64,000 bases of DNA from the NCBI GenBank assembly GCA_017428495.1, contig JAFRQS010000023.1:670-64669 (forward strand). The letters are read 5' to 3'. Below the pieces are notes generated by a model. It saw nothing but the letters and a program-made list of their open reading frames with translations. It was not told the origin of the DNA and ran no database searches. Shown here in pieces: positions 1 through 49,688 of this stretch. This DNA comes from Bacilli bacterium. Its GTDB lineage: Bacteria > Bacillota_I > Bacilli_A > RF39 > UBA660. Each line of letters opens with the position of its first letter. The stretch's first letter is position 1. The translations under genes and the position numbers were made by a program.

Positions 1-2
1 CA

Positions 3-1757
3 AATGGAGGAGTATGTATTCCTTCATCAGTAGAAGTGTTACCACAAAAAACATATCAGATGAAAGCTGTACCAATACCAGCAGATGCAGATGATAAAGA
101 AGTAACATGGTCTAGTAGTGATACAAGTGTTGCTACTGTTGATTCAAATGGTAAAATAACTGCAAAAGCAGAGGGTGAAGCAACAATAACTGCTAAGATA
201 GGTGAAGTTAGTGCAACATGTACATTAAAAGTAAGTAAGCAAGTTATAACTTGTGCACCAGGTGAATATTTACCAAAATCAAAAGATAAATGTGAGAAAT
301 GTTTAGTTGGTAGTGAATGTTCTGGAGGATCATATCCAATAAGTGATGCAACAGATCAAGGAATAAAGATGTGCCCAGCAGGAACATATGCTGATAAAGA
401 GGGTATGGTAAGTTGTACACCATGTCCAGCTGGTACAACAAGCCCAGCAGGTTCTAAATCAGCTTCTGATTGTAAAGCATCAAATGAACCAACACCAGCA
501 CCTTCTCCATCAACAAGTTATAAATGCTATCAATGTGGTGGAAGTCAAGGAGTAAGATATTATTGGGCTTCACAATCTCCAGACACTTCTAATTGTGGTG
601 TTGCTACAGTTGTATTAGATCCAGCAACAGGAAGTCAAGTGGCAGCAAATTCTAATAACTGTAATGGAACATCAACATCTAAAATGAGAGAATATTGTGA
701 AAATAAAAACATGAAATATTTAACATGTCCATCAGGTCAAGAAGTAGATAAGAAAGATTCATATGGATGTGTAACATGTAAGAATGCTTCTACAGGATAC
801 AAGTGTTATGCTTGTGGTGGAAGTCAAGGCGTAAATTATTATTGGACTGATAAAGCTCCAAGTACTAATTGTGCTATAGCTACATCAGTACAAGATCCAT
901 CAACAGGAAATTCAGTTGGTGCAAATGCAGGAAATTGTAATGGTTCATCAACGTCTAAGTCAAGACAATATTGTGAAAGTAGAGGAATGTATTATTTGAC
1001 ATGTCCATCTGGTAGAACTCAAACTGGAACAGAAGGTCATGGTTGTGTAACATGTAAATTAAATTCAACACCAAAATGTCCACAAAGACAATATTATACT
1101 GGAGTTTCATGTCAGAATTGTCCAGCAAATATGTATTGCCCAGGTGATGATAAATCATATGCATGCCCAGCACATTCTCAGGCTAGAGGTTCTGCAGGTC
1201 AAAAAATAGATTGTTTATGTGATGATGGTTATAAAATGGTAGCAGGTAAATGTGAACCAAATGGGGCGTCAAATTTAATATGTGCAGCTGGCCAATATAA
1301 ATCAGGTGATAAATGTGTATCATGTCCATCAGGTTATACTTCAAATAAAGGAGCAACAAGTATAAGTTATTGTTATATAAATGTTGCTGCAGGTCATGCA
1401 GTTGTTAGAGCTGGTGGTGGCCAAGTATCATGTGGAGCTGGAACATATAAAGGAGCACACACAGTATATTATAATCAAACAAGTTCATGTAATAAGTGCC
1501 CAGCAGGAACATATTCAAGTTCAGGAGCTAGTGTATGCCCATCATGTAGAAAAGGAACATATTCAACAGGTGGCGCAGCAAGTTGTACAAGTTGCCCATC
1601 AGGATATACAACTTCAGGAACAGGTGCAACATCTAGTTCACAATGTGTTAGAGCAACAGTACCAAATTGTAAGGATGCTTGTGTTCAATCTTTCTCAGGC
1701 GCAACATATGATGGTACTTATGATCCAAAGACAAATACATGTTTGTGTTGGGGTTAG
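3..1757 (+). CDS. 5'-partial Cys-rich secreted/surface protein: Big_2-like Ig domain, ephrin-receptor-like/GCC2-GCC3-type CxxCPxG repeats and two 93-aa 8-Cys repeats
   Basis: Frame 3 is open from the window edge (NGGVCIPSSVEVLPQ...). VTWSSSDTSVATVDSNGKITAKAEGEATITA is a typical Big_2 signature. Many CxxCPAGTY motifs; 49 Cys counted in the 573-aa ORF. Confidence 0.8.
   Translation, partial: NGGVCIPSSVEVLPQKTYQMKAVPIPADADDKEVTWSSSDTSVATVDSNGKITAKAEGEATITAKIGEVSATCTLKVSKQVITCAPGEYLPKSKDKCEKCLVGSECSGGSYPISDATDQGIKMCPAGTYADKEGMVSCTPCPAGTTSPAGSKSASDCKASNEPTPAPSPSTSYKCYQCGGSQGVRYYWASQSPDTSNCGVATVVLDPATGSQVAANSNNCNGTSTSKMREYCENKNMKYLTCPSGQEVDKKDSYGCVTCKNASTGYKCYACGGSQGVNYYWTDKAPSTNCAIATSVQDPSTGNSVGANAGNCNGSSTSKSRQYCESRGMYYLTCPSGRTQTGTEGHGCVTCKLNSTPKCPQRQYYTGVSCQNCPANMYCPGDDKSYACPAHSQARGSAGQKIDCLCDDGYKMVAGKCEPNGASNLICAAGQYKSGDKCVSCPSGYTSNKGATSISYCYINVAAGHAVVRAGGGQVSCGAGTYKGAHTVYYNQTSSCNKCPAGTYSSSGASVCPSCRKGTYSTGGAASCTSCPSGYTTSGTGATSSSQCVRATVPNCKDACVQSFSGATYDGTYDPKTNTCLCWG
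516..1058 (+). repeat. Two tandem ~279-nt (93-aa) Cys-rich domain repeats
   Basis: YKCYxCGGSQGVxYYW...NC...DP.TG..V.AN..NCNG.STSK.R.YCE...M.YLTCPSG......GCVTCK occurs twice, starting near 516 and 795. Confidence 0.9.
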
Positions 1758-1808
1758 TAATATAGACTTATCTGTATGAGTTTATAATCATAAATGATAT
1801 TAAAATTT

Positions 1809-1843
1809 AGTAGAAAAATCTTATGAGGTTTTTCTACTTTTTT
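1809..1843 (+). terminator. Rho-independent terminator
   Basis: AGTAGAAAAATC-loop-GGTTTTTCTACT followed by a T tract. Confidence 0.8.
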
Positions 1844-1850
1844 ATTATTT

Positions 1851-1879
1851 GAATTATTAATTATTATAAGTGCATACTA
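1851..1879 (+). promoter_or_regulatory. Putative sigma-G-type promoter for the DUF421 gene
   Basis: GAATT-N17-CATACTA versus the sigma-G consensus GHATA-N17/18-CATAHTA; YetF-family genes are forespore-expressed in Bacillus. Confidence 0.45.
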
Positions 1880-1893
1880 ATAGTGGTGATTAT

Positions 1894-2613
1894 ATGAATA
1901 TAAATATTAATGAGTTACTTAATGTTGTTTTTAGAGCTTTGATTTCTTTGATTGTATTATTTCTTGTAACAAAATTGATTGGAAAAAAACAGGTGTCTCA
2001 GCTAAGTTTATTTGATTATGTTATAGGGATATCAATAGGTAACTTTGCTGCAGAAATGACTATTAATCTTGAATCAGAAGAAATATATGGGATACTTGCT
2101 GTAGTTATTTTCGGTGGAATTGCATATTTGGTATCTATTCTTTCAATAAAAAGTATTAAATTAAGGAGATTTTTTATGGGGACACCTACAATATTAATTG
2201 AACATGGAAAAATACTTCAGGATAGTTTTTATAAGGTTAGGTATGATATTAATGATATGCTTGAGCAATGTCGAATAAAAGGATATTATGATATATCAGA
2301 AATTGAGTATGCAATTGTAGAAGCTAATGGAGAATTAAGTATAATGCCTAATGGTAGTAATAGAAATGTTACTATTAAGGATATGAATTTAAAAGTGGAA
2401 AAACAAGGGTTATGTGCTAATGTAATTATTGATGGTAAAATTATGTATCATAATTTAAAAGTGATAAATAAAGATGTAGAATGGTTAAATAAGGAATTGA
2501 AGATAAAAGGTAAAAAAATAGATGATATAATTTTAAGTACTGTTGATATTAATGGTAAGATAAATTTTTATGAAAGAAATAAAAAAGGAAAAATTCTAAA
2601 TGTATTAGAATAA
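1894..2613 (+). CDS. DUF421/YetF-family membrane protein
   Basis: KLIGKKQVSQLSLFDYVIGISIG, PTILIEHGKI and AIVEANGELSI motifs; start moved to ATG 1894 after GTGGTGA. Confidence 0.9.
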   Translation: MNININELLNVVFRALISLIVLFLVTKLIGKKQVSQLSLFDYVIGISIGNFAAEMTINLESEEIYGILAVVIFGGIAYLVSILSIKSIKLRRFFMGTPTILIEHGKILQDSFYKVRYDINDMLEQCRIKGYYDISEIEYAIVEANGELSIMPNGSNRNVTIKDMNLKVEKQGLCANVIIDGKIMYHNLKVINKDVEWLNKELKIKGKKIDDIILSTVDINGKINFYERNKKGKILNVLE

Positions 2614-3080: not shown

Positions 3081-3102
3081 ATGTACAATATGTACATTTT
3101 TT
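3081..3102 (+). terminator. Short terminator hairpin after the TspO gene
   Basis: ATGTACA-ATA-TGTACAT followed by Ts. Confidence 0.55.
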
Positions 3103-3158
3103 TATTGTTTATATTTAATTATTATTTTTTGATGTATAATAAAATTAGGAGTAGTAGT

Positions 3159-4424
3159 ATGAATGGGTTGTATTTAGGAATATATGTAGTATTAATTTTA
3201 TTATTAGTTATACTTGGTGCTTTTATTTTTATGAATAGAAAGGCACACATTAAGAAAATCATATTTTTTTCAATACTTATTTTTACTATTCTTTTATTTG
3301 TTGGATATTATGGATATAGCATTTTAAATAAACCTATATTAAAAATAAATGGTAGTGAAATAGTAAACATATCTGTATTTGATAAATATAATGATGAAGG
3401 ATTTGAAATAAAGCATCCGAACTCTACTAAATTAAAAAAAGCAGTTAAAGTAGATAATAATGTGGATACTAATAAAGTGGGTACATATAACGTAAAGTAT
3501 TCATTAAAATATTTTGGAAAAGACATATATGCTACTAGGATAGTTAATGTAATAGATGAAATAAAACCTATAATTGAATTAAAGGGAAATACTGAATTGA
3601 CATTATCAAGAGGTATAGAATATGCTGAACAAGGTTATACTGCTACTGATAATTATGATGGTGATATAACTAATAAAGTAAAAGTAGAAAATAATATTTT
3701 AGATGAAGTTGGCAAGTATGAAATAATATATAGTGTTACAGATTCTAGTGGTAATAGTTATTCTATTAAAAGAATAGTAAATAGGTTAAATAACAATAAT
3801 GGTGTAATATATTTAACATTTGATGATGGGCCAAGTTCAAATACTTCTAAGATATTAGATATATTAAAAAGTGAAAATATTAAAGCAACATTTTTTGTGG
3901 TTAATTATGGTTCTGCATATGATTTGCTTGTGCAAAGAATAGTTAATGAAGGTCATACTATTGCCTTACATAGTTATACACATGATTATAAGATTATATA
4001 TGCATCTGAAGAGTCATATTTTAATGATTTAATTACTTTAAAAAATAAAGTTAAAAATACAACGGGAATAGATTCAATTATAATAAGATTTCCGGGTGGA
4101 AGTTCCAATACTATAAGTAGTTTTAATAAAGGTATAATGTCTAGATTAGTAAATGCAGTAAAAGAACAAGGATATCATTATTTTGATTGGAATGTAGATA
4201 GTAGAGATGCTGGTGTAGCAAAGAATAGTACTGAAGTGTATAATAACGTTATGAAAGGACTTATACCTAATAGATCAAATGTGGTTTTAATGCATGATTT
4301 AGGATATAATGTTAAGACTGTTGAAGCGTTGAAAAACATTATTGAAGATTCAAAGAACAAAGGATATTCATTTGCTAGAATAACTAATGATACACCTATG
4401 ATTACACACAAAGTAAATAATTAA
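3159..4424 (+). CDS. Membrane-anchored polysaccharide deacetylase (CE4/NodB) with two DUF5011-type Ig-like domains
   Basis: YLTFDDGP, ALHSYTH, IRFPGG, DWNVDSRD and VLMHD motifs; DNYDGDITNKV repeats; N-terminal TM segments; start at ATG 3159 after AGGAG. Confidence 0.9.
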   Translation: MNGLYLGIYVVLILLLVILGAFIFMNRKAHIKKIIFFSILIFTILLFVGYYGYSILNKPILKINGSEIVNISVFDKYNDEGFEIKHPNSTKLKKAVKVDNNVDTNKVGTYNVKYSLKYFGKDIYATRIVNVIDEIKPIIELKGNTELTLSRGIEYAEQGYTATDNYDGDITNKVKVENNILDEVGKYEIIYSVTDSSGNSYSIKRIVNRLNNNNGVIYLTFDDGPSSNTSKILDILKSENIKATFFVVNYGSAYDLLVQRIVNEGHTIALHSYTHDYKIIYASEESYFNDLITLKNKVKNTTGIDSIIIRFPGGSSNTISSFNKGIMSRLVNAVKEQGYHYFDWNVDSRDAGVAKNSTEVYNNVMKGLIPNRSNVVLMHDLGYNVKTVEALKNIIEDSKNKGYSFARITNDTPMITHKVNN

Positions 4425-4585: not shown

Positions 4586-6100
4586 ATGAAAAAGTTTTTA
4601 ATAAGTGTAATGTTACTATTATTAGTTGTTACAGTACGTGCTGAAGAAAAAGTAAATTTAAAATTAGAGTGGATACCTAATATGTATTATAGTTATAAAA
4701 AGGATGGTATGACATATTGGGGTCAATTTGCATATGCCTATGTGGATGGTAAGATAGCATATTGTCTAGATATATACCATCCTATAACTAAGTATGAGTA
4801 TACATCGACAAGTGAAATTCAGGAAAATAATTTGGTTATATTAGCAGGATATTTTGGATATGGATATAATGGTGAATATTTACTAAAAGATTATGTCGCT
4901 ACACAAAAACTAATATGGGAATATTTGGGTATGAATGTAAAAATAACTGCTGAAAGTGAAGGAAAAGGTAGGGAAATAGATTTGTATGATAATACTTTAA
5001 AAATAATAGAAAGAATAAATAGATATGCACTATTTCCAAGATTTGATAGTGACTTTATATTTGATTTAAATACAACAAATCAGTTAAATGATTTAAATGA
5101 AATAAGTGATAATTTCGATATAATAAATGAGTCATATAATAATATATATTCTATAGATAATAATGTAATATTTGAAGCATATGAAGTTGGTACAAATGAT
5201 TTTTATTTAAAAACCAAATATGATATGAATCATTCTAATATTATATTTGTAGCACCAGATTCCCAAAAAATAATGATTATTGGTGAAGTAAATAACTTAA
5301 CACAAAGATATTCTTATGAGGTGGTTGATTCTGATGATGAAACTCCAATAATAGAAGAAAATCCAATAATAGAGGAAGACCCAGTAGTAGTGGAAGACCC
5401 AATAATAGAGGAAGACCCAGTAATAGAAGAAGACTCAGTAATAGAAGAAGACCCAATAATAGAGGAAGATCCAATAATAGAGGAAGACCCAGTAGTAGAA
5501 GAAGACCCAATAATAGAGGAAGATCCAATAATAGAGGAAGACCCAGTAGTAGAAGAAGACCCAATAATAGAAGAAGATCCAGTAATAGAAGAGGATCCAG
5601 TAATAGAAGAGGATCCAGTAATAGAAGAGGATCCAGTAATAGAAGAGGATCCAGTAGTAGAAGAATACCCGATAATAGAGGAAGATCCAATAATAGAGGA
5701 AGATCCAGTAATAGAGGAAGACCCAATAATAGAAGAAGATCCAATAATAGAAGAAGATCCAGTAATAGAAGAAGATCCAGTAATAGAAGAGGATCCAATA
5801 ATAGAAGAAGATCCAGTAATAGAAGAAGATCCAGTAATAGAAGAGGATCCAGTAATAGAAGAGGATCCAATAATAGAGGAAGATCCAGTAATAGAAGAAG
5901 ATCCAGTAATAGAAGAGGATCCAGTAATAGAGGAAGATCCAGTAATAAAGGAAGATCCAGTAATGGAAGAAGAGAGTGTAAATATTGAAAATAGTGTGAA
6001 AATTTCAGAAAAAATAGATAAGTTACCATTTTTAGGGGTATATTATGAAAAAAATCTTAATATTTGCATTTATTTTATTAAATTTAACTGGATGTACTAA
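4586..6100 (+). CDS. Cys-Gln thioester-domain (TED) surface adhesin with acidic repeat stalk and LPFLG sorting-like motif
   Basis: Signal peptide; AYCLD (Cys at 4763), ATQKLIW motif, candidate reactive Gln in DSQKIMIIG (5264); 35 EEDPVI-type repeats; C-terminal KLPFLG; adjacent sortase. Confidence 0.75.
   Translation: MKKFLISVMLLLLVVTVRAEEKVNLKLEWIPNMYYSYKKDGMTYWGQFAYAYVDGKIAYCLDIYHPITKYEYTSTSEIQENNLVILAGYFGYGYNGEYLLKDYVATQKLIWEYLGMNVKITAESEGKGREIDLYDNTLKIIERINRYALFPRFDSDFIFDLNTTNQLNDLNEISDNFDIINESYNNIYSIDNNVIFEAYEVGTNDFYLKTKYDMNHSNIIFVAPDSQKIMIIGEVNNLTQRYSYEVVDSDDETPIIEENPIIEEDPVVVEDPIIEEDPVIEEDSVIEEDPIIEEDPIIEEDPVVEEDPIIEEDPIIEEDPVVEEDPIIEEDPVIEEDPVIEEDPVIEEDPVIEEDPVVEEYPIIEEDPIIEEDPVIEEDPIIEEDPIIEEDPVIEEDPVIEEDPIIEEDPVIEEDPVIEEDPVIEEDPIIEEDPVIEEDPVIEEDPVIEEDPVIKEDPVMEEESVNIENSVKISEKIDKLPFLGVYYEKNLNICIYFIKFNWMY
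5336..5965 (+). repeat. Coding tandem repeat, 35 x 18 bp (EEDP[V/I][I/V])
   Basis: Units read directly, e.g. GAAGAGGATCCAGTAATA; 630 bp total from DETPII to KEDPVM. Confidence 0.97.
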
Positions 6101-6500
6101 TACTGATGTAAGAGATAATAGTCTTGTTATTGCTAAGATAGGTATTGATGAAAAATATAGTATAGTAAATTTGGATGATGATGTTAATGGTATAGTTATG
6201 TATAGTGAGTGTGGGAGACCAGATAAGGATGGATCTAATACAGTTATAGGTGCACATTCTGGAATAGGCAGTAATGCATTATTTAACAATATATCTAAAC
6301 TAGAAATAGGTGATTTAATAAGTTTAGTCTATAATAACTATGAATATACGTATGCGGTTATAGATGTTAAAGTAGTAAATGATAGTGATAGTTATATATT
6401 GGATGATACTGGTGAAAATTTGCTTACTTTAATTACGTGTAAGTTTGGCTATGTTGATAAAAGAATTGTTGTTATTTCTAAACTTACAATTGACTTATGA
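6045..6500 (+). CDS. Minimal sortase with lipoprotein signal peptide
   Basis: Catalytic GAHSG (His), LTLITC (Cys) and KRIVV (Arg); N-terminus MKKILIFAFILLNLTGC ends in a lipobox. Confidence 0.88.
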   Translation: MKKILIFAFILLNLTGCTNTDVRDNSLVIAKIGIDEKYSIVNLDDDVNGIVMYSECGRPDKDGSNTVIGAHSGIGSNALFNNISKLEIGDLISLVYNNYEYTYAVIDVKVVNDSDSYILDDTGENLLTLITCKFGYVDKRIVVISKLTIDL

Positions 6501-13058: not shown

Positions 13059-13120
13059 TATTAATAATATGTATATTGTTTAAAATTGTAAAAAGTTATA
13101 TAATTATAATAGGTGATAGT

Positions 13121-14473
13121 ATGAATAAAAGAGGTTTTACTTTAGTAGAAGTTATAGTTAGCTTTGTTCTTATTACGGCAGTTTCATTAGCATTATTTAA
13201 AACTACATTGTCTATTCAAGAAAAACAAAAAGAGAATTTAGCAATAAATTCATTTAAAGCATTTAATCTAGCAATTAATAATGAGATACAATATGATTTT
13301 TTAACTGATAAAATATTATCTACAACTCCATGTGGAGATAGTTGTTATGATATTGTATTTGAGAATAGAGGAACCGTTAGGACAACTTTAAATAAAGAGG
13401 ATGGTATAATAACATATGGAAGTTTCAAGGAAAAATTGCCAAGTGAGTATAAGTTTTATGATGATATGCTAATTACCAGTTATTCATCAGATAATGAAGG
13501 TCTAAATTCATATGTAGTAATGACTATACCTGTAAAGAGTAATTATGAGCCAAATTTGAGTAATATAAAATATATGTATCAGTATGATAAGAATAATCCA
13601 AATGCATTGGTTGATTTAAATTTACCAAATGCAAGTGATATATTTGCATCTAAAGTAGGTGAATGTGGATTATATAGAGATGATCACGGTGATTTGAGAT
13701 ATCAAGGATCAAATCCATGTAATTATGTAACATTTAATGATGAAACATGGAGGATAGTAGGGATATTTACTGTTGATGGGGATAAAAGAATAAAGATTGT
13801 TAGAGAAGAGTCATTGGGCAGTTATTCATGGGATTCAAGTGATTCTACTATAAATGGTGGCGATGGAATAAATCAATGGGGACCATCTGGAACATATGTT
13901 GGTGCAGACTTAATGTTGGAATTGAATGGTGACTATTTGAATTCTTCATTATCCGCAAATACAAATTGGTATAATGGTGAAGATGGACAGCAGGATGCAG
14001 TATTTAATAAAGATTATGTTTTAAAGCAAGATTCAAAAAAATTAATAGCTGATACAACATGGCATTTAGGTGCGTTTACTGGGACCGCAATTAATTCATT
14101 AGCCTCAGTATATTTAGCAGAAAGAGGAGTGGATCATTTTGCAAATCCGACTGATGGTGTAGAAAGAACAAATACATGGAAAGGTAAAGTTGGATTGATC
14201 TATCCATCTGATTTTGGATATGCTTCAGCAAATTATTCATGCAAGGACAATATTAATTCGACTGGTATTTGTGATAATAATTGGATGTCTAATTATGGTT
14301 GGACTATTACTACTACCGCATCCACTGTGAAACATGGTTGGTATTCGGTTGCTCAGAATAATACTGGTTCCAAGATGGCGGTTGCACATCCAGTACATCC
14401 ATCAGTATACTTAAAATCAATTGTTAAAGTTGCTGGAGAAGGTACAACTGATAATCCATATATATTTAGTTAA
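13121..14473 (+). CDS. Prepilin-type N-terminal cleavage/methylation protein with large C-terminal extracellular (DUF6273-like) domain
   Basis: MNKRG/FTLVEVIVSFVLI class III signal; C-terminal NYVTFNDETWRIVG, KVGLIYPSDFGYA and GEGTTDNPY motifs. Confidence 0.8.
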   Translation: MNKRGFTLVEVIVSFVLITAVSLALFKTTLSIQEKQKENLAINSFKAFNLAINNEIQYDFLTDKILSTTPCGDSCYDIVFENRGTVRTTLNKEDGIITYGSFKEKLPSEYKFYDDMLITSYSSDNEGLNSYVVMTIPVKSNYEPNLSNIKYMYQYDKNNPNALVDLNLPNASDIFASKVGECGLYRDDHGDLRYQGSNPCNYVTFNDETWRIVGIFTVDGDKRIKIVREESLGSYSWDSSDSTINGGDGINQWGPSGTYVGADLMLELNGDYLNSSLSANTNWYNGEDGQQDAVFNKDYVLKQDSKKLIADTTWHLGAFTGTAINSLASVYLAERGVDHFANPTDGVERTNTWKGKVGLIYPSDFGYASANYSCKDNINSTGICDNNWMSNYGWTITTTASTVKHGWYSVAQNNTGSKMAVAHPVHPSVYLKSIVKVAGEGTTDNPYIFS

Positions 14474-29145: not shown

Positions 29146-29910
29146 ATGAAAACAAGAATATTAATGATTGATGATAATATAAATTTAGTTGAGATGATTG
29201 GAGAATATTTTAAGGATAATAAATATATAGAAATGAGTTTAAAGGCTAATTCTGGTGAAGAAGGAATAAAATTAATTGAGGAAAGAAAAGATGATTATGA
29301 TGTAATTATTTTAGATTTGATAATGCCCAATAAAGATGGTATTTATGTATTAGAAGAAATGAAGAAAAAGAGTATAGATAAACCAGTAATAATATCTACT
29401 TCATATAATAGTGATGATATGATTAGAAGAGTGTCTGAATATGGAGTACAGTATTTTTTGTTAAAACCATATGAATTATCAGATTTAGAAAATAGAATAT
29501 TGGAACTTTGTAATTCGGATTTTAAAGAAAGTAAAAATATAAATTTATATCATAATAATTTACAAATATCTATTACAAAAATATTACATGAATTAGGAGT
29601 TCCTTCCCATATCAAAGGATATCAATATATTAGAGAAGGAATAACGCTTTTGTATAGCAATCCAGATATGATTGGTGGTATAACTAAAGAATTGTATCCA
29701 GAAATAGCATTAAAGTTTAGTACTACTGTTTCAAGAGTAGAAAGAGCTATAAGACATGCTATAGAAGTTAGCTGGAATAGAGGTGATTGGGATTTGATGG
29801 ATGAAATATTTGGACATAGTGTAGATATAGATAAAGCAAAACCAACTAATTCAGAATTTATAGTAACAGTTGCAGATAAACTTAGACTAGATAGAGCAAA
29901 AACTAATTAA
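29146..29910 (+). CDS. spo0A: Sporulation master regulator Spo0A
   Basis: Receiver domain LDLIMP; C-terminal [26 protein letters not shown] and KPTNSEFI. Confidence 0.98.
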
Positions 29911-31490: not shown

Positions 31491-31628
31491 ATGGATAGAG
31501 AAATTAAAACAGAATACGTTGATAAGCTTTTATCTCTAACAAAAGAAGAATTAGAGGGCATATTTAATGAATTGAGTTTATCTGAATTAGAAGACTTAAT
31601 ATCAAAAATAAACGAGGGGGTTGAATAG
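31491..31628 (+). CDS. Small hypothetical helical protein (45 aa), absent from the ORF track
   Basis: SD GAGGTG at ~31480; reads MDREIKTEYVDKLLSLTKEELEGIFNELSLSELEDLISKINEGVE*. Confidence 0.65.
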   Translation: MDREIKTEYVDKLLSLTKEELEGIFNELSLSELEDLISKINEGVE

Positions 31629-31629
31629 T

Positions 31630-33135
31630 GTGACAAAAAAGGAATTTAGTGAATATATAGAAAAAGCAATGGAAGAATGCAGAAGTATTTATAAAGAAAC
31701 GAAGAGTTATACTGAAAAGATGTATTCTAGTGCTATGAAAGAAAATATGAATAAATCAGCAATCGGTTTATATACATTAGAAAATGATCCTGAATATATG
31801 TATAACAAATATATGGAAAGATTAGCACTTTCTAAACTAGATAGATTATATTCTTTATTAAAAGAAGCTGCAAGAGAAAGAATGGAATCAATGTCCGATG
31901 AAGATATTGAAGAATATAGAGAAGAAAAACAAGCGGAGATTAGTGAAGAAATAAATAGAAAAATGCTTAAGTTTGAAGCACTAACAGATGAAATGGCTAG
32001 ATTAGTTATTAAAGATTCAATAGATGAACTTATAATTGAACAAAAAAGAGTTAGAACATGTGCTGTAGATGAAATTAAATCTTCTTTAATAGAAAAGTTA
32101 GGTATATCAAAGACTGTTTCAAATATAGCTCCGTTAGCAGATGATGAAGCTAAAGTATTGGCAAATATTTCTAGGGATAAAGAAACTCTAACAAGATTTT
32201 TTAAACTGCTAGAAGAATATAGAAATTTACAAAGTGATGTTAAGACAATTGGAATAGAAAGAGTTATAATTGCAAGAGATTTAATTCCATCAAATATGAA
32301 TTTCTCATTATCTGATATAAATGAAGAAGAATTATTTAGTGATGAAACTTTTGACAAAATTCAAAAACAAATATCTATCTATATTCAGAGTGCTGTTGAT
32401 GAAGAAACAGTTGAAAGCATGTATTTTTCAGATGGGGCAGAAGAAAGTTATTATGCATTAAAATCAACTAGTTATAAGTATTCAGATGAAATACCACATG
32501 ATGAAAAGGCATTAAAACACTTTAAATCAATAATAACAGATAGATTATATGAGCTTGCACAATTACAAAATCAAGAATGGGAAAGATTACATAACAAAAT
32601 GTTTAAAACCAATGAAACAACATCTAGAATAGCAAGTTTATCTTCTGAAATAGATGAAACAAAAGAGTTAATAAATCATTGTATAATAGAAAAATACAAG
32701 GAACATTATTCTAATAATGATATATATGGATCTATTTCTACAAGAATAAATGGCAAGTTGGAATATGCTTTAGGAAGAGAATCATTAGAAGATTTCTATA
32801 ATACAGGAATTTGGCCAACTAAAGAGCAGATAGATGCGCTTAAAAGAGCTAGAGAATTAAATAAGAAAGAAGCAGAAAAATGCGTTATAAGAGTTGAGGT
32901 TGCAAAGGAGAAATTCTCTGGATTACAAGAAAGAGCTTTAAATAATAAAAATGAAAAGATAGAACTAGTAAGAAAAGAAATGACAGATCTTGTTGGTAAT
33001 TGGGAAAATCCTACAATATTAAATATTATAAATAGTGGAATAAGAATTGATGAAAAACCAATAACCAAACCTGTTCAAGAAGAAAGTACAAATAAATTTA
33101 TCAATGAAACAGAAGAATTATTAATTGAAGATTAA
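31630..33135 (+). CDS. Hypothetical E/K-rich coiled-coil protein (~501 aa)
   Basis: Probable GTG start at 31630 after GAGGGGG; heptad-like helical composition; no signal peptide. Confidence 0.75.
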   Translation: MTKKEFSEYIEKAMEECRSIYKETKSYTEKMYSSAMKENMNKSAIGLYTLENDPEYMYNKYMERLALSKLDRLYSLLKEAARERMESMSDEDIEEYREEKQAEISEEINRKMLKFEALTDEMARLVIKDSIDELIIEQKRVRTCAVDEIKSSLIEKLGISKTVSNIAPLADDEAKVLANISRDKETLTRFFKLLEEYRNLQSDVKTIGIERVIIARDLIPSNMNFSLSDINEEELFSDETFDKIQKQISIYIQSAVDEETVESMYFSDGAEESYYALKSTSYKYSDEIPHDEKALKHFKSIITDRLYELAQLQNQEWERLHNKMFKTNETTSRIASLSSEIDETKELINHCIIEKYKEHYSNNDIYGSISTRINGKLEYALGRESLEDFYNTGIWPTKEQIDALKRARELNKKEAEKCVIRVEVAKEKFSGLQERALNNKNEKIELVRKEMTDLVGNWENPTILNIINSGIRIDEKPITKPVQEESTNKFINETEELLIED

Positions 33136-47504: not shown

Positions 47505-49688
47505 ATGAGTATAAAAGAATTAATAAATAAATTGTTTAAACCAAAAACAAGGCAACAAGGACTAGCCTTACCCACTGATTTAGTATCAGTTCCTATGCGT
47601 GATAGTTTAGATAATAGTAAGATTAAAGAATTAGATGAATATAAAAATAGTTATTTAAAAATACTATTGCAAAAGAAACATTTTACTAGTCATGATATTA
47701 GTTCAAAAGATTTTAGCCAGGAAATGGCTATGAATTTTGAACTATTTGGGAGATTGGTAATAAATCATGATAGTAATTATAATCTTGACACAATGCCTAA
47801 TTATGAAAAAAATGAATTACTTATTAAACAAAGAGTTAATCCTATAAAAATTCAACTATATATTGATAGAATGGGAGAAATGTGGGATGAAACACATTTA
47901 CAATTAATTGCTTTAAGAGAAATATATAGTGAATTAGGCAAAAAATTAACTAAAGATAAGAAAGAAGCAATTTTAAATGAAATATATAATCTAACTACTA
48001 AATATATTATTTTTAAAAGTAATGTATATGCCGCTTTAGCAGAAGTTGAGACTTATAAAAAAGAGATAACAAATGATTCAGCATCAAATGAAATTGATAA
48101 TCTAGTTATGTATCATCATAATGTAAGTTATTATGCTTTATATTTTATACCAGATATAGCACTTGAAATAGCGAAAAATAGAGAATATACTATTTTAGAT
48201 AAAATTGCTATTTTAGAACGGGAATTAGAAATGTATGCGTATAATCATCTTAAAATTGATGACTTGAATAAAGAGTTAGAAGAAATTGATAAAATAGAAA
48301 AAACACCTAGCAATAAACAAAAGTTATTAGATAAAATTAATAAATTAGAAATAAAATTTCTTGTTTTAAATGATTATGGTGGACATGAACTAGATTTAAA
48401 GCCATTATATGAAGTAAAATTTGATATTTTAACTATCGATATAGTTAGACAAAATGATAGTCCGTTTAAAAATGTTGAAGGAAGAGAGTTAAAATATTAT
48501 GAAAATATTATTTTAGATAAAATAACTACAAATATTACTGGGGTAGATTCATTACTCAATCAAAGATTAGATGAAGATAATAAAAAAATAATTGAATACT
48601 TTGTTGCATTGTTAAAGAATGGGGATAGTTATAATTTTTATATCATACTACAAGATATTTTTAAATTATCTTTATTACTTAGTGCAAGTAGTGATGAAGA
48701 AATGAGTTATTTTTTTGATAATTTTAAAATCAACTTTAATAAGAATGCTAAATATGATTTTCAATATCATTTTACAAGAGAAATTCCTAGAATAGGTATC
48801 AGCGCAAATAATACAATCCCTCTAAGTGCAGTTTGCTGGCTAAATAATCTTGATATATTGATTGAAAAACAGGGACAAGGCTTTATTAATGAGGATACAA
48901 ATAGAATTGTTCAGATATATAATTATTTTGCAGATAAAGAAACTGAAAAAACTTCACAATATAAGATACCAGAAGGAATTACTAAAATTACATTATCTTT
49001 TTATACCAGAAATTATATTATTAAAGATGAAATATTAAAAAAATCTTTAGGAAAAACACTTGTAACTCCGAGTAGTCTTAAAACCTTTAGTTTAGTAGAT
49101 ACAATTTATGGTAAAAAAGATAGATTAACTTTATCTACTGATGTAGCAAGTGAATCAAATGAAATAATAAATTCTAACCCTTGGTTTTCACCTGTTTTGC
49201 ATGCTTCTAATGTAATTTTTAATGAAGGATTAGAATATATTTATGAGCCATCTTTTATAGGTTGTACTACACAATCTTTAACAATACCATCTACATTGCG
49301 TAATGCAGATGAATCAGCAATTGCATATGCTTTTAGCACTTCTAGTGGTATACAATCAAGTATATATGAATTAATATTTACTAATTATGAAAATTCCATT
49401 ACTTTGCATGATAATGAACAAATGGATAATATAATTAAAAGATTATTTGATATATCATTTTTATATGAATTATCTATGTTAAGTGACATTGTTCCGATTA
49501 TATCTCCAAGAATACAAAAAATTGTTTTAGTTTCAAAAGACGGAGAGAGAATACAAATATTAATAAATGAAATTATCGCTAGTAATCTCTCAAATAATGA
49601 ATCAGATCCTGATAAAATTATTAGTGAAATAAAAAAAGAAATCTATGAAATAGTTAATAATACAAAAGAAGAAAATAAATCTAAATAG
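47505..49688 (+). CDS. Large hypothetical protein: helical N-half, degenerate BspA/LRR_5-like repeats in the C-half
   Basis: KIPEGITKI, TPSSLKTF and FNEGLEYIYEPSFIGCTTQSLTIPSTL; no signal peptide. Confidence 0.6.
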   Translation: MSIKELINKLFKPKTRQQGLALPTDLVSVPMRDSLDNSKIKELDEYKNSYLKILLQKKHFTSHDISSKDFSQEMAMNFELFGRLVINHDSNYNLDTMPNYEKNELLIKQRVNPIKIQLYIDRMGEMWDETHLQLIALREIYSELGKKLTKDKKEAILNEIYNLTTKYIIFKSNVYAALAEVETYKKEITNDSASNEIDNLVMYHHNVSYYALYFIPDIALEIAKNREYTILDKIAILERELEMYAYNHLKIDDLNKELEEIDKIEKTPSNKQKLLDKINKLEIKFLVLNDYGGHELDLKPLYEVKFDILTIDIVRQNDSPFKNVEGRELKYYENIILDKITTNITGVDSLLNQRLDEDNKKIIEYFVALLKNGDSYNFYIILQDIFKLSLLLSASSDEEMSYFFDNFKINFNKNAKYDFQYHFTREIPRIGISANNTIPLSAVCWLNNLDILIEKQGQGFINEDTNRIVQIYNYFADKETEKTSQYKIPEGITKITLSFYTRNYIIKDEILKKSLGKTLVTPSSLKTFSLVDTIYGKKDRLTLSTDVASESNEIINSNPWFSPVLHASNVIFNEGLEYIYEPSFIGCTTQSLTIPSTLRNADESAIAYAFSTSSGIQSSIYELIFTNYENSITLHDNEQMDNIIKRLFDISFLYELSMLSDIVPIISPRIQKIVLVSKDGERIQILINEIIASNLSNNESDPDKIISEIKKEIYEIVNNTKEENKSK

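What the first reader, a model, noticed from the sequence alone, without database searches (positions are those of the whole stretch)
3..1757. Eukaryote-like Cys-rich surface protein in a gut-type Firmicute
Seen: a Big_2 Ig domain followed by ~490 aa of Cys/Gly/Ser/Thr-rich repeats (CxxCPAGTY; 49 Cys in 573 aa), with no C-terminal TM or LPxTG. The region looks less AT-rich than its neighbours (by eye, not computed). Known: such ephrin-receptor-like/GCC2-GCC3 repeats are typical of protist surface antigens and rare in Firmicutes. Inference: a disulfide- or metal-stabilised rod for host or protist interaction, which raises the question of how disulfides form in a presumed anaerobe.
Basis: partly seen in the sequence, partly recalled or inferred. 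Interest (0 to 1): 0.7.

Follow-up and report, generated by a model that had tools for sequence, protein, structure and literature searches.

The report
Cysteine-rich tip of gut-bacterium surface fibre
The stretch is the far end of a roughly 1,556-residue, membrane-anchored surface fibre of an uncultured sheep and cattle gut bacterium. Its tip combines eukaryote-type cysteine-rich repeats with a previously undescribed 8-cysteine domain, which is odd for a group that normally keeps cysteine out of exported proteins.

Summary
Window 3..1757 (+) encodes a Big_2 Ig domain followed by about 500 residues with 48 cysteines, including Pfam Ephrin_rec_like repeats. There is no C-terminal TM segment or LPxTG.

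Corrections:
- The ORF is only the C-terminal third of the protein. Identical and 98%-identical contigs from other assemblies give about 1,556 aa: a disordered N-terminal tail, one TM helix, then a roughly 900-aa Ig-like stalk.
- The higher GC comes from amino-acid composition alone. GC3 is 0.09, which is native codon usage.
- It is neither a contaminant nor a misassembly. Contigs from four independent sequencing runs span the gene and its neighbours unbroken.
- The Cys-rich part is the distal tip, not the whole rod.

Orthologs in seven gut Bacilli MAGs keep the anchor and stalk but carry entirely different tips, two of them ending in pretoxin-HINT domains. Ectodomain Cys counts are even in 7 of 7, and all 60 Cys are conserved between strains, which argues for disulfides.

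A tandem 92-aa 8-Cys module has no Pfam hit. It is found only in this protein, its adjacent paralog and one relative. It models confidently (pLDDT 87) with no PDB match.

Most likely this is a fibrillar adhesin-like protein with an exchangeable, disulfide-braced tip.

The parts
3..1757 (+). C-terminal 584 codons plus stop of a roughly 1,556-aa surface protein gene. The 5' part lies outside the window.
   Evidence: Open frame. L001 is 100% identical over window 1-1800 and extends the frame to at least 1,489 aa. The 98%-identical ortholog P0122 is 1,556 aa.
21..224 (+). Big_2 Ig-like domain (aa 7-74), the last stalk domain. It has a Cys pair (C5/C73) that is also present in the orthologs.
   Evidence: Pfam PF02368, E=2.3e-17. 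AF2 pLDDT about 80, and Foldseek matches intimin and LigA Big_2 domains. The Cys pair is visible in the ortholog tails.
237..482 (+). Ephrin_rec_like/TNFR-like Cys-rich segment A (aa 79-160, 8 Cys).
   Evidence: Best Pfam PF07699 stretch at aa 123-157. AF2 pLDDT 72-90.
474..518 (+). Pro/Ser/Thr-rich linker (KASNEPTPAPSPSTS).
   Evidence: Read directly from the sequence.
519..794 (+). Novel 8-Cys module, copy 1 (aa 173-264).
   Evidence: 61% identical to copy 2. No Pfam hit. Eight invariant Cys plus Y/W/G/P positions. AF2 pLDDT 86.9. No PDB or BFVD fold match.
795..1070 (+). Novel 8-Cys module, copy 2 (aa 265-356).
1071..1262 (+). 8-Cys segment with an EGF-like end (aa 357-420).
   Evidence: Weak EGF_MSP1_1 hit at aa 387-418, below the cut-off. 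Low AF2 confidence.
1263..1652 (+). Ephrin_rec_like segment B (aa 421-550, 12 Cys), with CxxCP[AS]G[TY]Y units.
   Evidence: PF07699 stretches. AF2 pLDDT 74-92. Sequence match to the Chlamydomonas Mst1 Cys-rich region, E=1.6e-7.
1653..1754 (+). C-terminal 34-aa cap with CxxxC ... CxC (C556, C560, C580, C582). Predicted as a helix plus a hairpin.
   Evidence: Sequence. AF2 helix 556-563 and strands 568-574 and 579-583, but pLDDT is only about 55. The motif occurs only in P0121 and P0122 among 278 fetched proteins.
1809..1848 (+). Intrinsic-terminator-like hairpin plus T-run, 52 nt after the stop codon.
   Evidence: 13-pair stem; 0.1 such sites expected in shuffles.

Best explanation
The window holds the distal third of a large surface protein of an uncultured ruminant-gut Bacilli bacterium. 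The protein resembles a fibrillar adhesin.

Shown:
- The full protein is about 1,556 aa. It has a roughly 38-aa N/S/Y-rich N-terminal tail, a single hydrophobic helix followed by an invariant ...LLKFC motif, and then a roughly 900-aa stalk in which Pfam recognises at least five Ig-like domains.
- The 500-aa cysteine-rich tip described in the finding follows the stalk.
- The gene is native, present in many sheep and cattle gut metagenomes, and flanked by other surface-protein genes.

Inferred:
- The helix acts as an uncleaved signal-anchor, so the polypeptide projects outward with the Cys-rich modules furthest from the cell.
- The 60 ectodomain cysteines form about 30 intradomain disulfides that brace the tip. 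This would make it rigid and protease-resistant in the gut, as in TNFR/ephrin-receptor-type ladders and the Chlamydomonas mastigoneme.
- The tip is the ligand-binding part. The stalk is conserved between species while the tip is replaced wholesale, so the tip sets a fast-changing binding or recognition specificity. The target (host, feed particle, protist or other microbe) is unknown.
- The oxidising route that forms the disulfides in this presumed anaerobe is not identified.
For: Architecture:
- P0122 is 98% identical over the tip and has the same neighbours. It has one hydrophobic segment (KD 3.53 at residues 42-60) and no other.
- Pfam finds PF16403 x3, Big_3_2/DUF7743, Big_2 and Ephrin_rec_like.

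Native origin and assembly:
- GC3 is 0.092.
- Contigs of four independent runs, 5.1-5.7 kb long with 0-32 differences, span window 1-2600, or 314-2600 for the fourth.
- Runs from sheep and bovine gut in at least nine studies hold the stretch.
- Short metatranscriptome contigs match the gene.

Disulfides:
- All 60 Cys are conserved between two strain variants that differ at 23 residues.
- Four stalk Cys pairs are invariant in orthologs of 46-56% identity.
- The ectodomain Cys count is even in 7 of 7 orthologs.
- Every tip module has an even count.
- The only PDB relative by sequence is Mst1, a protein of Ig domains plus a disulfide ladder (PMC10602792).
- Foldseek gives weak hits to ELAPOR1, TNFR and the EphA2 Cys-rich domain.

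Variable tip on a conserved stalk:
- Six GTDB-genome orthologs have 56-66% identity in the stalk, but their tips are unrelated: EGF-like Cys-rich, S/T-rich, short, or PT-HINT.

Surface-protein neighbourhood:
- A PF16403-bearing deacetylase, a repeat protein and a sortase lie nearby.
- A second Cys-rich paralog lies immediately upstream.
Against: - No recognised adhesive domain and no known ligand.
- No experimental data exist on any family member.
- Disulfides were not observed. The presumably reducing gut habitat and the known cysteine exclusion in Firmicutes (PMC2823432) argue that they are hard to form.
- No Dsb, VKOR or thioredoxin-like gene was seen among the annotated genes of the 64-kb window, and the rest of the genome could not be searched.
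- The N-terminal helix could be a cleaved signal peptide, which would make the protein secreted rather than anchored.
- Two orthologs end in pretoxin-HINT, which hints at a different use of the scaffold.
- The transcription evidence is only a few 190-250-nt contigs and could be DNA carry-over.
Confidence: 0.6

Rival explanations
1. The scaffold delivers or presents a polymorphic toxin or another contact-dependent effector. The stalk would carry exchangeable C-terminal effector modules, and the 34-aa CxxxC/CxC cap of this protein would be a small defensin-like effector.
For: Orthologs L011 and L012, and the relative P0200, end in PT-HINT domains. Wholesale replacement of the C-terminus is typical of polymorphic toxins. 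The cap has the cystine-stabilised-helix Cys pattern, and AF2 predicts a helix plus a hairpin.
Against: The window protein has no HINT or toxin domain. In L012 the ORF stops directly after HINT, with no toxin module. Downstream lie DUF421 and TspO, not an immunity-like gene. The cap model has pLDDT of about 55 and lacks the third disulfide of CS-alpha-beta defensins.
Confidence: 0.1
2. It is a protective or antigenically variable surface coat rather than a specific adhesin. Like Giardia VSPs, dense disulfide-rich modules would shield the cell from gut proteases, phages or grazing protists, and the tips would vary to escape recognition.
For: Cys density is very high. Tips are unrelated between orthologs. 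Two Cys-rich paralogs sit in tandem. The habitat is the gut. The resistance of VSPs to proteases is from my own knowledge and was not checked here.
Against: There is one gene on a 900-aa stalk rather than a large switching gene family. No switching element was seen. Strain variants differ at only 8 of 506 tip residues, so there is no sign of rapid within-species variation.
Confidence: 0.15
3. The cysteines bind metal (Zn or Fe) or remain reduced, instead of forming disulfides, because the habitat is anoxic and reducing.
For: There are many CxxC pairs. No Dsb-type gene was seen in the window. Firmicutes generally avoid exported Cys (PMC2823432).
Against: Solved relatives of these repeats use disulfides (Mst1, PMC10602792; ELAPOR1, EphA2 and TNFR hits). 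Cys counts are even in 7 of 7 orthologs and in every module. Paired Cys also occur inside Ig-like stalk domains, where metal sites are not expected.
Confidence: 0.1
4. The segment is eukaryotic contamination, a chimeric assembly, or a recent transfer from a protist.
For: GC is higher than in the neighbours. The repeat type is mostly eukaryotic (PMC6993872). There are eukaryotic hits such as Naegleria at E=1e-58.
Against: GC3 is 0.092, below that of the neighbours. The Cys-rich part is fused in frame to bacterial Ig domains and a TM anchor. Contigs of four independent runs span the gene and its neighbours unbroken, and contigs of several further assemblies carry the same gene order. The best hits are bacterial.
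Confidence: 0.02

Closest known systems
Bacterial fibrillar adhesins (Ig-like stalk plus distal binding domain; Monzon et al., PMC8286594 and PMC9210967) and intimin/invasin-type Big_2 stalks
   Same: It is a long single polypeptide with tandem Ig-like stalk domains (PF16403, Big_2) that project a different module away from the cell. The distal part is variable and the neighbouring genes encode surface proteins.
   Different: The anchor is an N-terminal TM helix, not LPxTG or a beta-barrel. No catalogued adhesive domain is present. The distal part is a 48-Cys array of eukaryote-type repeats plus a new domain. 'Ephrin', 'cysteine' and 'disulfide' do not occur in the main text of the 2021 survey.
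Chlamydomonas mastigoneme protein Mst1 (PDB 8tx1, 8wa2)
   Same: It is the only solved structure found by sequence (E=1.6e-7). Its order is the same: tandem Ig-like domains, then Ephrin_rec_like-type Cys-rich modules forming a disulfide ladder (PMC10602792).
   Different: Mst1 is a eukaryotic, glycosylated protein with a polyproline-II tail that polymerises into a filament. The match covers only about 115 residues. Nothing here indicates polymerisation.
Pfam Ephrin_rec_like (PF07699, formerly GCC2_GCC3) and TNFR-like Cys-rich domains of ELAPOR1, Eph receptors, CaSR (NCD3G) and protist surface proteins
   Same: Segments A and B pass the Pfam cut-off. They show the CxxCPxGxY pattern and model as beta-hairpin ladders with high pLDDT. 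Foldseek gives weak hits to ELAPOR1, 4-1BB, OX40 and the EphA2 Cys-rich domain.
   Different: There is no ephrin-binding, FN3, kinase or 7TM part. The context is a bacterial anchor and stalk. The literature treats the domain as eukaryotic, with only isolated bacterial cases (PMC6993872).
Uncharacterised Cys-rich 'InlB B-repeat-containing' and pilin-like proteins of gut MAGs (Flg_new/N_methyl plus Ephrin_rec_like), e.g. P0124, P0126, P0036
   Same: They share Ephrin_rec_like, NCD3G and TNFR_ELAPOR1 repeats at 40-55% identity over parts of the tip. They come from gut metagenomes.
   Different: Their scaffolds differ (Flg_new repeats, prepilin leaders). They lack the PF16403 stalk, the N-terminal anchor of this family and the 8-Cys module.
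Giardia variant-specific surface proteins (VSPs)
   Same: They are CxxC-rich exported proteins of an anaerobic gut dweller, and they vary between copies.
   Different: VSPs have a C-terminal TM segment with a conserved tail and belong to a large switching gene family. Neither feature is present here. This comparison is from my own knowledge, not from a sequence test.

Membership tests
Pfam Big_2 (PF02368) | Score above the gathering cut-off of the family HMM | tested here: met
   63.1 bits against a cut-off of 22.8, aa 7-74.
Pfam Ephrin_rec_like (PF07699) | Score above the gathering cut-off of the family HMM | tested here: met
   51.5 bits against a cut-off of 23.1, 3 stretches. 47 bits in the 1,489-aa version.
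Eph receptor family | Ephrin ligand-binding domain, FN3 repeats, TM segment and tyrosine kinase | tested here: not met
   No such Pfam hits in the 1,489-aa protein.
Fibrillar adhesin (Monzon et al. definition) | Tandem stalk domains | tested here: met
   PF16403 x3, Big_3_2/DUF7743 and Big_2.
Fibrillar adhesin (Monzon et al. definition) | A recognised adhesive domain | tested here: not met
   The only other Pfam families above their cut-offs are the Cys-rich repeats. The 8-Cys module is unannotated.
Sortase-anchored LPxTG surface protein | C-terminal LPxTG, hydrophobic stretch and basic tail | tested here: not met
   No [LIV]Px[TSAG][GAS] motif, and the highest KD19 is 0.99. The protein ends ...NTCLCWG.
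Bacterial lipoprotein | Lipobox [LVI][ASTVI][GAS]C after a short signal peptide | tested here: not met
   The sequence is ...LLLKFC after a 38-aa polar tail. F at -1 and K at -2 do not fit the consensus (my own knowledge).
Polymorphic toxin with pretoxin-HINT | PT-HINT domain followed by a C-terminal toxin domain, with an immunity gene downstream | tested here: not met
   No HINT hit in the window protein, and DUF421 and TspO lie downstream. HINT is present in orthologs L011 and L012.
CS-alpha-beta defensin-like peptides | CxxxC on a helix bonded to CxC on a strand, plus a third disulfide | tested here: inconclusive
Giardia VSP | C-terminal TM segment with a conserved cytoplasmic tail | tested here: not met
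   No C-terminal hydrophobic segment.
Disulfide-bonded exported protein | Cystines present, and an oxidase (DsbA/BdbD, DsbB/VKOR) in the genome | not testable with these tools
No such Pfam family was seen among the annotated window genes. Indirect support comes from even Cys counts in 7 of 7 orthologs.

The most novel reading that the evidence does not exclude
Anaerobic gut Bacilli with very AT-rich genomes (about 27% GC here) carry out large-scale oxidative folding outside the cell, about 30 disulfides in one protein, by a route not yet recognised. They use a shared pool of eukaryote-type Cys-rich modules as exchangeable tips on a conserved surface fibre. That pool would also include lineage-specific inventions such as the 92-aa 8-Cys domain, which has no match in the solved or viral structure libraries available here.
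Probability: 0.3. Interest if true: 0.75.

Novelty: new variant of a known kind. Interest (0 to 1): 0.55.

Why it matters
Firmicutes are the textbook case of cysteine exclusion from exported proteins (PMC2823432). The literature treats Ephrin_rec_like repeats as a eukaryotic invention with only isolated bacterial cases (PMC6993872).

Here a native, conserved gene of a widespread ruminant-gut Bacilli lineage puts 60 paired, conserved cysteines outside the cell. If they are disulfides, this lineage must have an oxidative-folding route, and that can be tested with a recombinant tip and a genome search.

The family also gives a clear example of a conserved anchor and stalk with cassette-like tips. 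It also yields a compact new 8-Cys domain that is suitable for structure determination. The organisms are uncultured, so the function can only be reached through recombinant protein and metaproteomics.

Tried and rejected
- **Own genome.** So there was no whole-genome Dsb/VKOR search and no paralog census.
- **Genome-contig scan with the 584-aa fragment.** Nothing was found, so the window's genome is not among the GTDB representatives held. The window's contig is 65,737 bp in NCBI, so the gene is also cut at the contig end in its own assembly.
- **Rfam and tRNA scans of the window.** Both were empty, so there is no rRNA for taxonomy.
- **Self-BLAST of the fragment.** It printed no off-diagonal pairs. 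The internal duplication was shown by a direct pairwise comparison instead.
- **AF2 on the whole fragment with a 9-sequence alignment.** Residues 160-405 stayed below pLDDT 50. Modelling the module alone worked.
- **Foldseek of the module against PDB and BFVD.** Nothing scored below E=1. No AlphaFold DB library was available.
- **Literature searches.** Searches for Ephrin_rec_like or GCC2_GCC3 in bacteria gave no description of this family.
- **One look-up of encoding contigs.** It failed, probably because the GTG start was wrong.
- **Readings rejected.** Eukaryotic contamination, misassembly and recent horizontal transfer (GC3, independent contigs); LPxTG or lipoprotein anchoring; membership of the Eph receptor or VSP families.
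Full report
**1. What is in the sequence**

Window 3..1757 (+) is an open frame of 584 codons that runs off the 5' end of the window.

- Pfam finds Big_2 at aa 7-74 (63.1 bits, cut-off 22.8) and Ephrin_rec_like in three stretches (51.5 bits, cut-off 23.1). There is only a sub-threshold EGF-like hit besides. NCBIfam gives only weak intimin-type Big_2 similarity.
- The fragment has 50 Cys. That is 8.6%, against 0.8% for the other 68 ORFs of the window.
- There is no LPxTG-like motif and no hydrophobic stretch.
- A hairpin plus T-run at 1809-1848 closes the gene.

GC is 0.35-0.39 here, against 0.19-0.27 just downstream. By codon position it is 0.44, 0.59 and 0.09, and the third-position value is below that of the neighbours (0.13-0.15). 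The GC excess therefore reflects the Cys/Gly/Ala/Ser/Thr/Pro-rich protein, and codon usage is native to this 27.5%-GC genome.

**2. Not an artefact**

- The downstream TspO protein is encoded on 11 contigs from other assemblies.
- One of them, L001, is 100% identical to window 1-1800 and continues the frame upstream.
- Logan contigs of four independent runs, 5.1-5.7 kb long with 0-32 differences, cover window 1-2600 (314-2600 for the fourth) without a break.
- The stretch is held by sheep and bovine gut metagenomes from at least nine studies.
- A few 190-250-nt contigs of bovine gut metatranscriptomes match the gene. This is weak evidence of transcription.
- The window's own contig is 65,737 bp in NCBI. 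Near-identical SecY and nucleoside-kinase proteins are labelled 'MAG: Bacilli bacterium'.
- The window also holds Spo0A, a sortase and ribosomal operons.

**3. Full architecture**

L001 extends the protein to at least 1,489 aa. P0122 is a complete ortholog of 1,556 aa that is 98% identical over the tip and has the same neighbours. In order, it has:

- a 38-aa N/S/Y-rich tail;
- one strongly hydrophobic helix (KD 3.53), the only hydrophobic segment in the protein, followed by ...LLKFC-GSGSG;
- three PF16403 Bact_surface_Ig-like domains, further Ig-like sequence (Big_3_2/DUF7743) and Big_2;
- the Cys-rich part.

This explains the missing C-terminal anchor: the protein is most likely held by its N-terminus, and the Cys-rich part is the distal tip. 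Whether the helix is cleaved was not tested. The LKFC sequence does not fit a lipobox.

**4. Anatomy of the tip**

After Big_2, the 48 Cys fall into six units:

| Unit | Residues | Cys |
|---|---|---|
| Ephrin_rec_like segment A | 79-160 | 8 |
| 8-Cys module, copy 1 | 173-264 | 8 |
| 8-Cys module, copy 2 | 265-356 | 8 |
| Segment with an EGF-like end | 357-420 | 8 |
| Ephrin_rec_like segment B | 421-550 | 12 |
| C-terminal cap with CxxxC...CxC | 551-584 | 4 |

A Pro-rich linker joins segment A to the first module. The two module copies are 61% identical.

AF2 on the whole fragment is confident for Big_2 and for segments A and B (pLDDT about 72-92), but not for residues 160-405. Foldseek finds intimin and LigA for Big_2. 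For the Cys-rich parts it gives only weak hits: mastigoneme, ELAPOR1, CaSR and sweet-receptor Cys-rich domains, 4-1BB, OX40 and the EphA2 Cys-rich domain.

By sequence, the only PDB relative is Chlamydomonas Mst1 (E=1.6e-7). That protein also places tandem Ig-like domains before a disulfide-ladder region (PMC10602792).

**5. The 8-Cys module**

- It has no Pfam hit.
- An exhaustive phmmer search of the two-module region against 1.84 billion representatives found five proteins at E<=1e-3 and only one below 1e-10 (P0034).
- An HMM of the module finds it only in P0121, P0122, P0034 and P0102 among 278 fetched proteins.
- P0102 turned out to be the gene immediately upstream of the ortholog in L007. 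It is a second Cys-rich paralog with seven Ephrin_rec_like stretches and further 8-Cys modules.
- The alignment shows eight invariant Cys plus invariant Y, W, G, N and P positions.
- Modelled alone, the module gives pLDDT 86.9 and pTM 0.67: a beta-hairpin, short strands, a helix and a second beta-hairpin.
- It has no match in PDB (best E=5.5) or in BFVD (best E=1.0).

Caveats: the alignment has six rows, three of the five models score below 70, and AlphaFold DB could not be searched.

**6. Evidence bearing on disulfides**

- All 60 ectodomain Cys are conserved between two strain variants that differ at 23 residues.
- Four Cys pairs inside stalk domains are invariant among orthologs of 46-56% identity.
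- The number of ectodomain Cys is even in all seven complete orthologs, at 60, 54, 72, 48, 20, 14 and 14 (not counting the HINT catalytic Cys). Each tip unit also holds an even number.

This is the signature that Daniels et al. use for disulfide-forming proteomes, and it is the opposite of the cysteine exclusion they report for Firmicutes (PMC2823432).

No Dsb, VKOR or thioredoxin-like family appears among the annotated genes of the window. Some clostridia do have DsbA and VKOR homologues, one of them recycled by small thiols (PMC12453122), so a route is conceivable.

**7. The family**

A profile of three full-length proteins found six orthologs in GTDB genomes. All are gut MAGs, variously labelled Erysipelotrichaceae (rumen RUG12915), Bacilli (Hadza), Mollicutes UMGS1266, Clostridium sp. 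CAG:1193 and others. They have 56-66% identity across the anchor and stalk.

Their parts after Big_2 are unrelated to one another:

- Cys-rich Ephrin-like plus PT-HINT (L011);
- low-Cys plus a terminal PT-HINT (L012);
- S/T/G-rich (L013);
- a short Cys tip (L015);
- 40 Cys in EGF-like units (L016).

P0202 and P0150 carry a Flg_new-like insert plus Ephrin_rec_like repeats.

Ephrin_rec_like repeats also occur in hundreds of other uncharacterised bacterial proteins on other scaffolds (Flg_new, prepilin leaders), and in protists. Earlier notes of this scan report the same repeat type in small-genome gut Alphaproteobacteria. I treated those notes as leads only. The published literature I could search describes the domain as eukaryotic, with isolated bacterial cases (PMC6993872).

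**8. Interpretation**

The topology and modular build are shown. The function is inferred. The most likely function is a fibrillar adhesin-like fibre whose disulfide-braced, exchangeable tip binds an unknown partner.

The rivals are:
- a toxin or effector-presenting scaffold, suggested by the HINT orthologs but without a HINT or toxin domain here;
- a protective or variable coat;
- metal-bound rather than disulfide-bonded cysteines.

Contamination, misassembly and recent transfer are rejected.

**9. Verdict**

This is a real and native gene. It is a new variant of a known kind: a bacterial surface fibre with an unusual N-terminal anchor, a eukaryote-type Cys-rich tip and a new small domain. 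It is moderately interesting because of the oxidative-folding question and the new module. Its value is limited because the organism is uncultured and no ligand is known.

Noticed in passing
L007:1-2181 (upstream of the ortholog; outside the window): A second Cys-rich gene (P0279, identical to the NCBI partial protein P0102) lies directly upstream of the target gene. It has seven Ephrin_rec_like stretches and further 8-Cys modules, so the locus holds a tandem pair of paralogs separated by about 580 nt.
   Followed up: partly
L011:1899-7322 and L012:5947-10032: Two orthologs end in a pretoxin-HINT domain. In L012 the stop codon follows two residues after the HINT motif ...ILVHN, with no toxin module behind it.
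   Followed up: partly
window 4586-6500: A 504-aa protein with a signal peptide and about 35 EEDP[VI]I repeats, ending in KLPFLG, overlaps a 151-aa sortase gene. In L001/L008 no long gene is called over the repeat part, so the repeat length may differ or collapse between assemblies.
   Followed up: no
window 3081-4424: A polysaccharide deacetylase carries the same PF16403 Ig-like domain as the stalk of the target protein, behind an N-terminal TM segment.
   Followed up: no
window 13076-14473: A 465-aa protein with a prepilin-type N-terminal methylation motif (PF07963) and no other Pfam domain. Relatives of the Cys-rich tip elsewhere are fused to the same kind of leader (P0124).
   Followed up: no
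window 47505-49688 and 31621-33135: Two long ORFs (727 aa and 504 aa) next to ribosomal and RNA-polymerase genes have no Pfam hit at E<=1e-3.
   Followed up: no
window 29146-29910: A response regulator with a Spo0A_C domain in this 27.5%-GC 'Bacilli' MAG. This suggests the lineage descends from spore-formers or still sporulates.
   Followed up: no
window 1039-1058 and 1497-1518 (runs X1, X2, X10): An 869-nt contig in the same metagenomes shares only two 20-nt words with the gene. It encodes a sequence like P0034 and the upstream paralog (YTKIGTAGD...), so a paralog or sister strain co-occurs in these samples.
   Followed up: no
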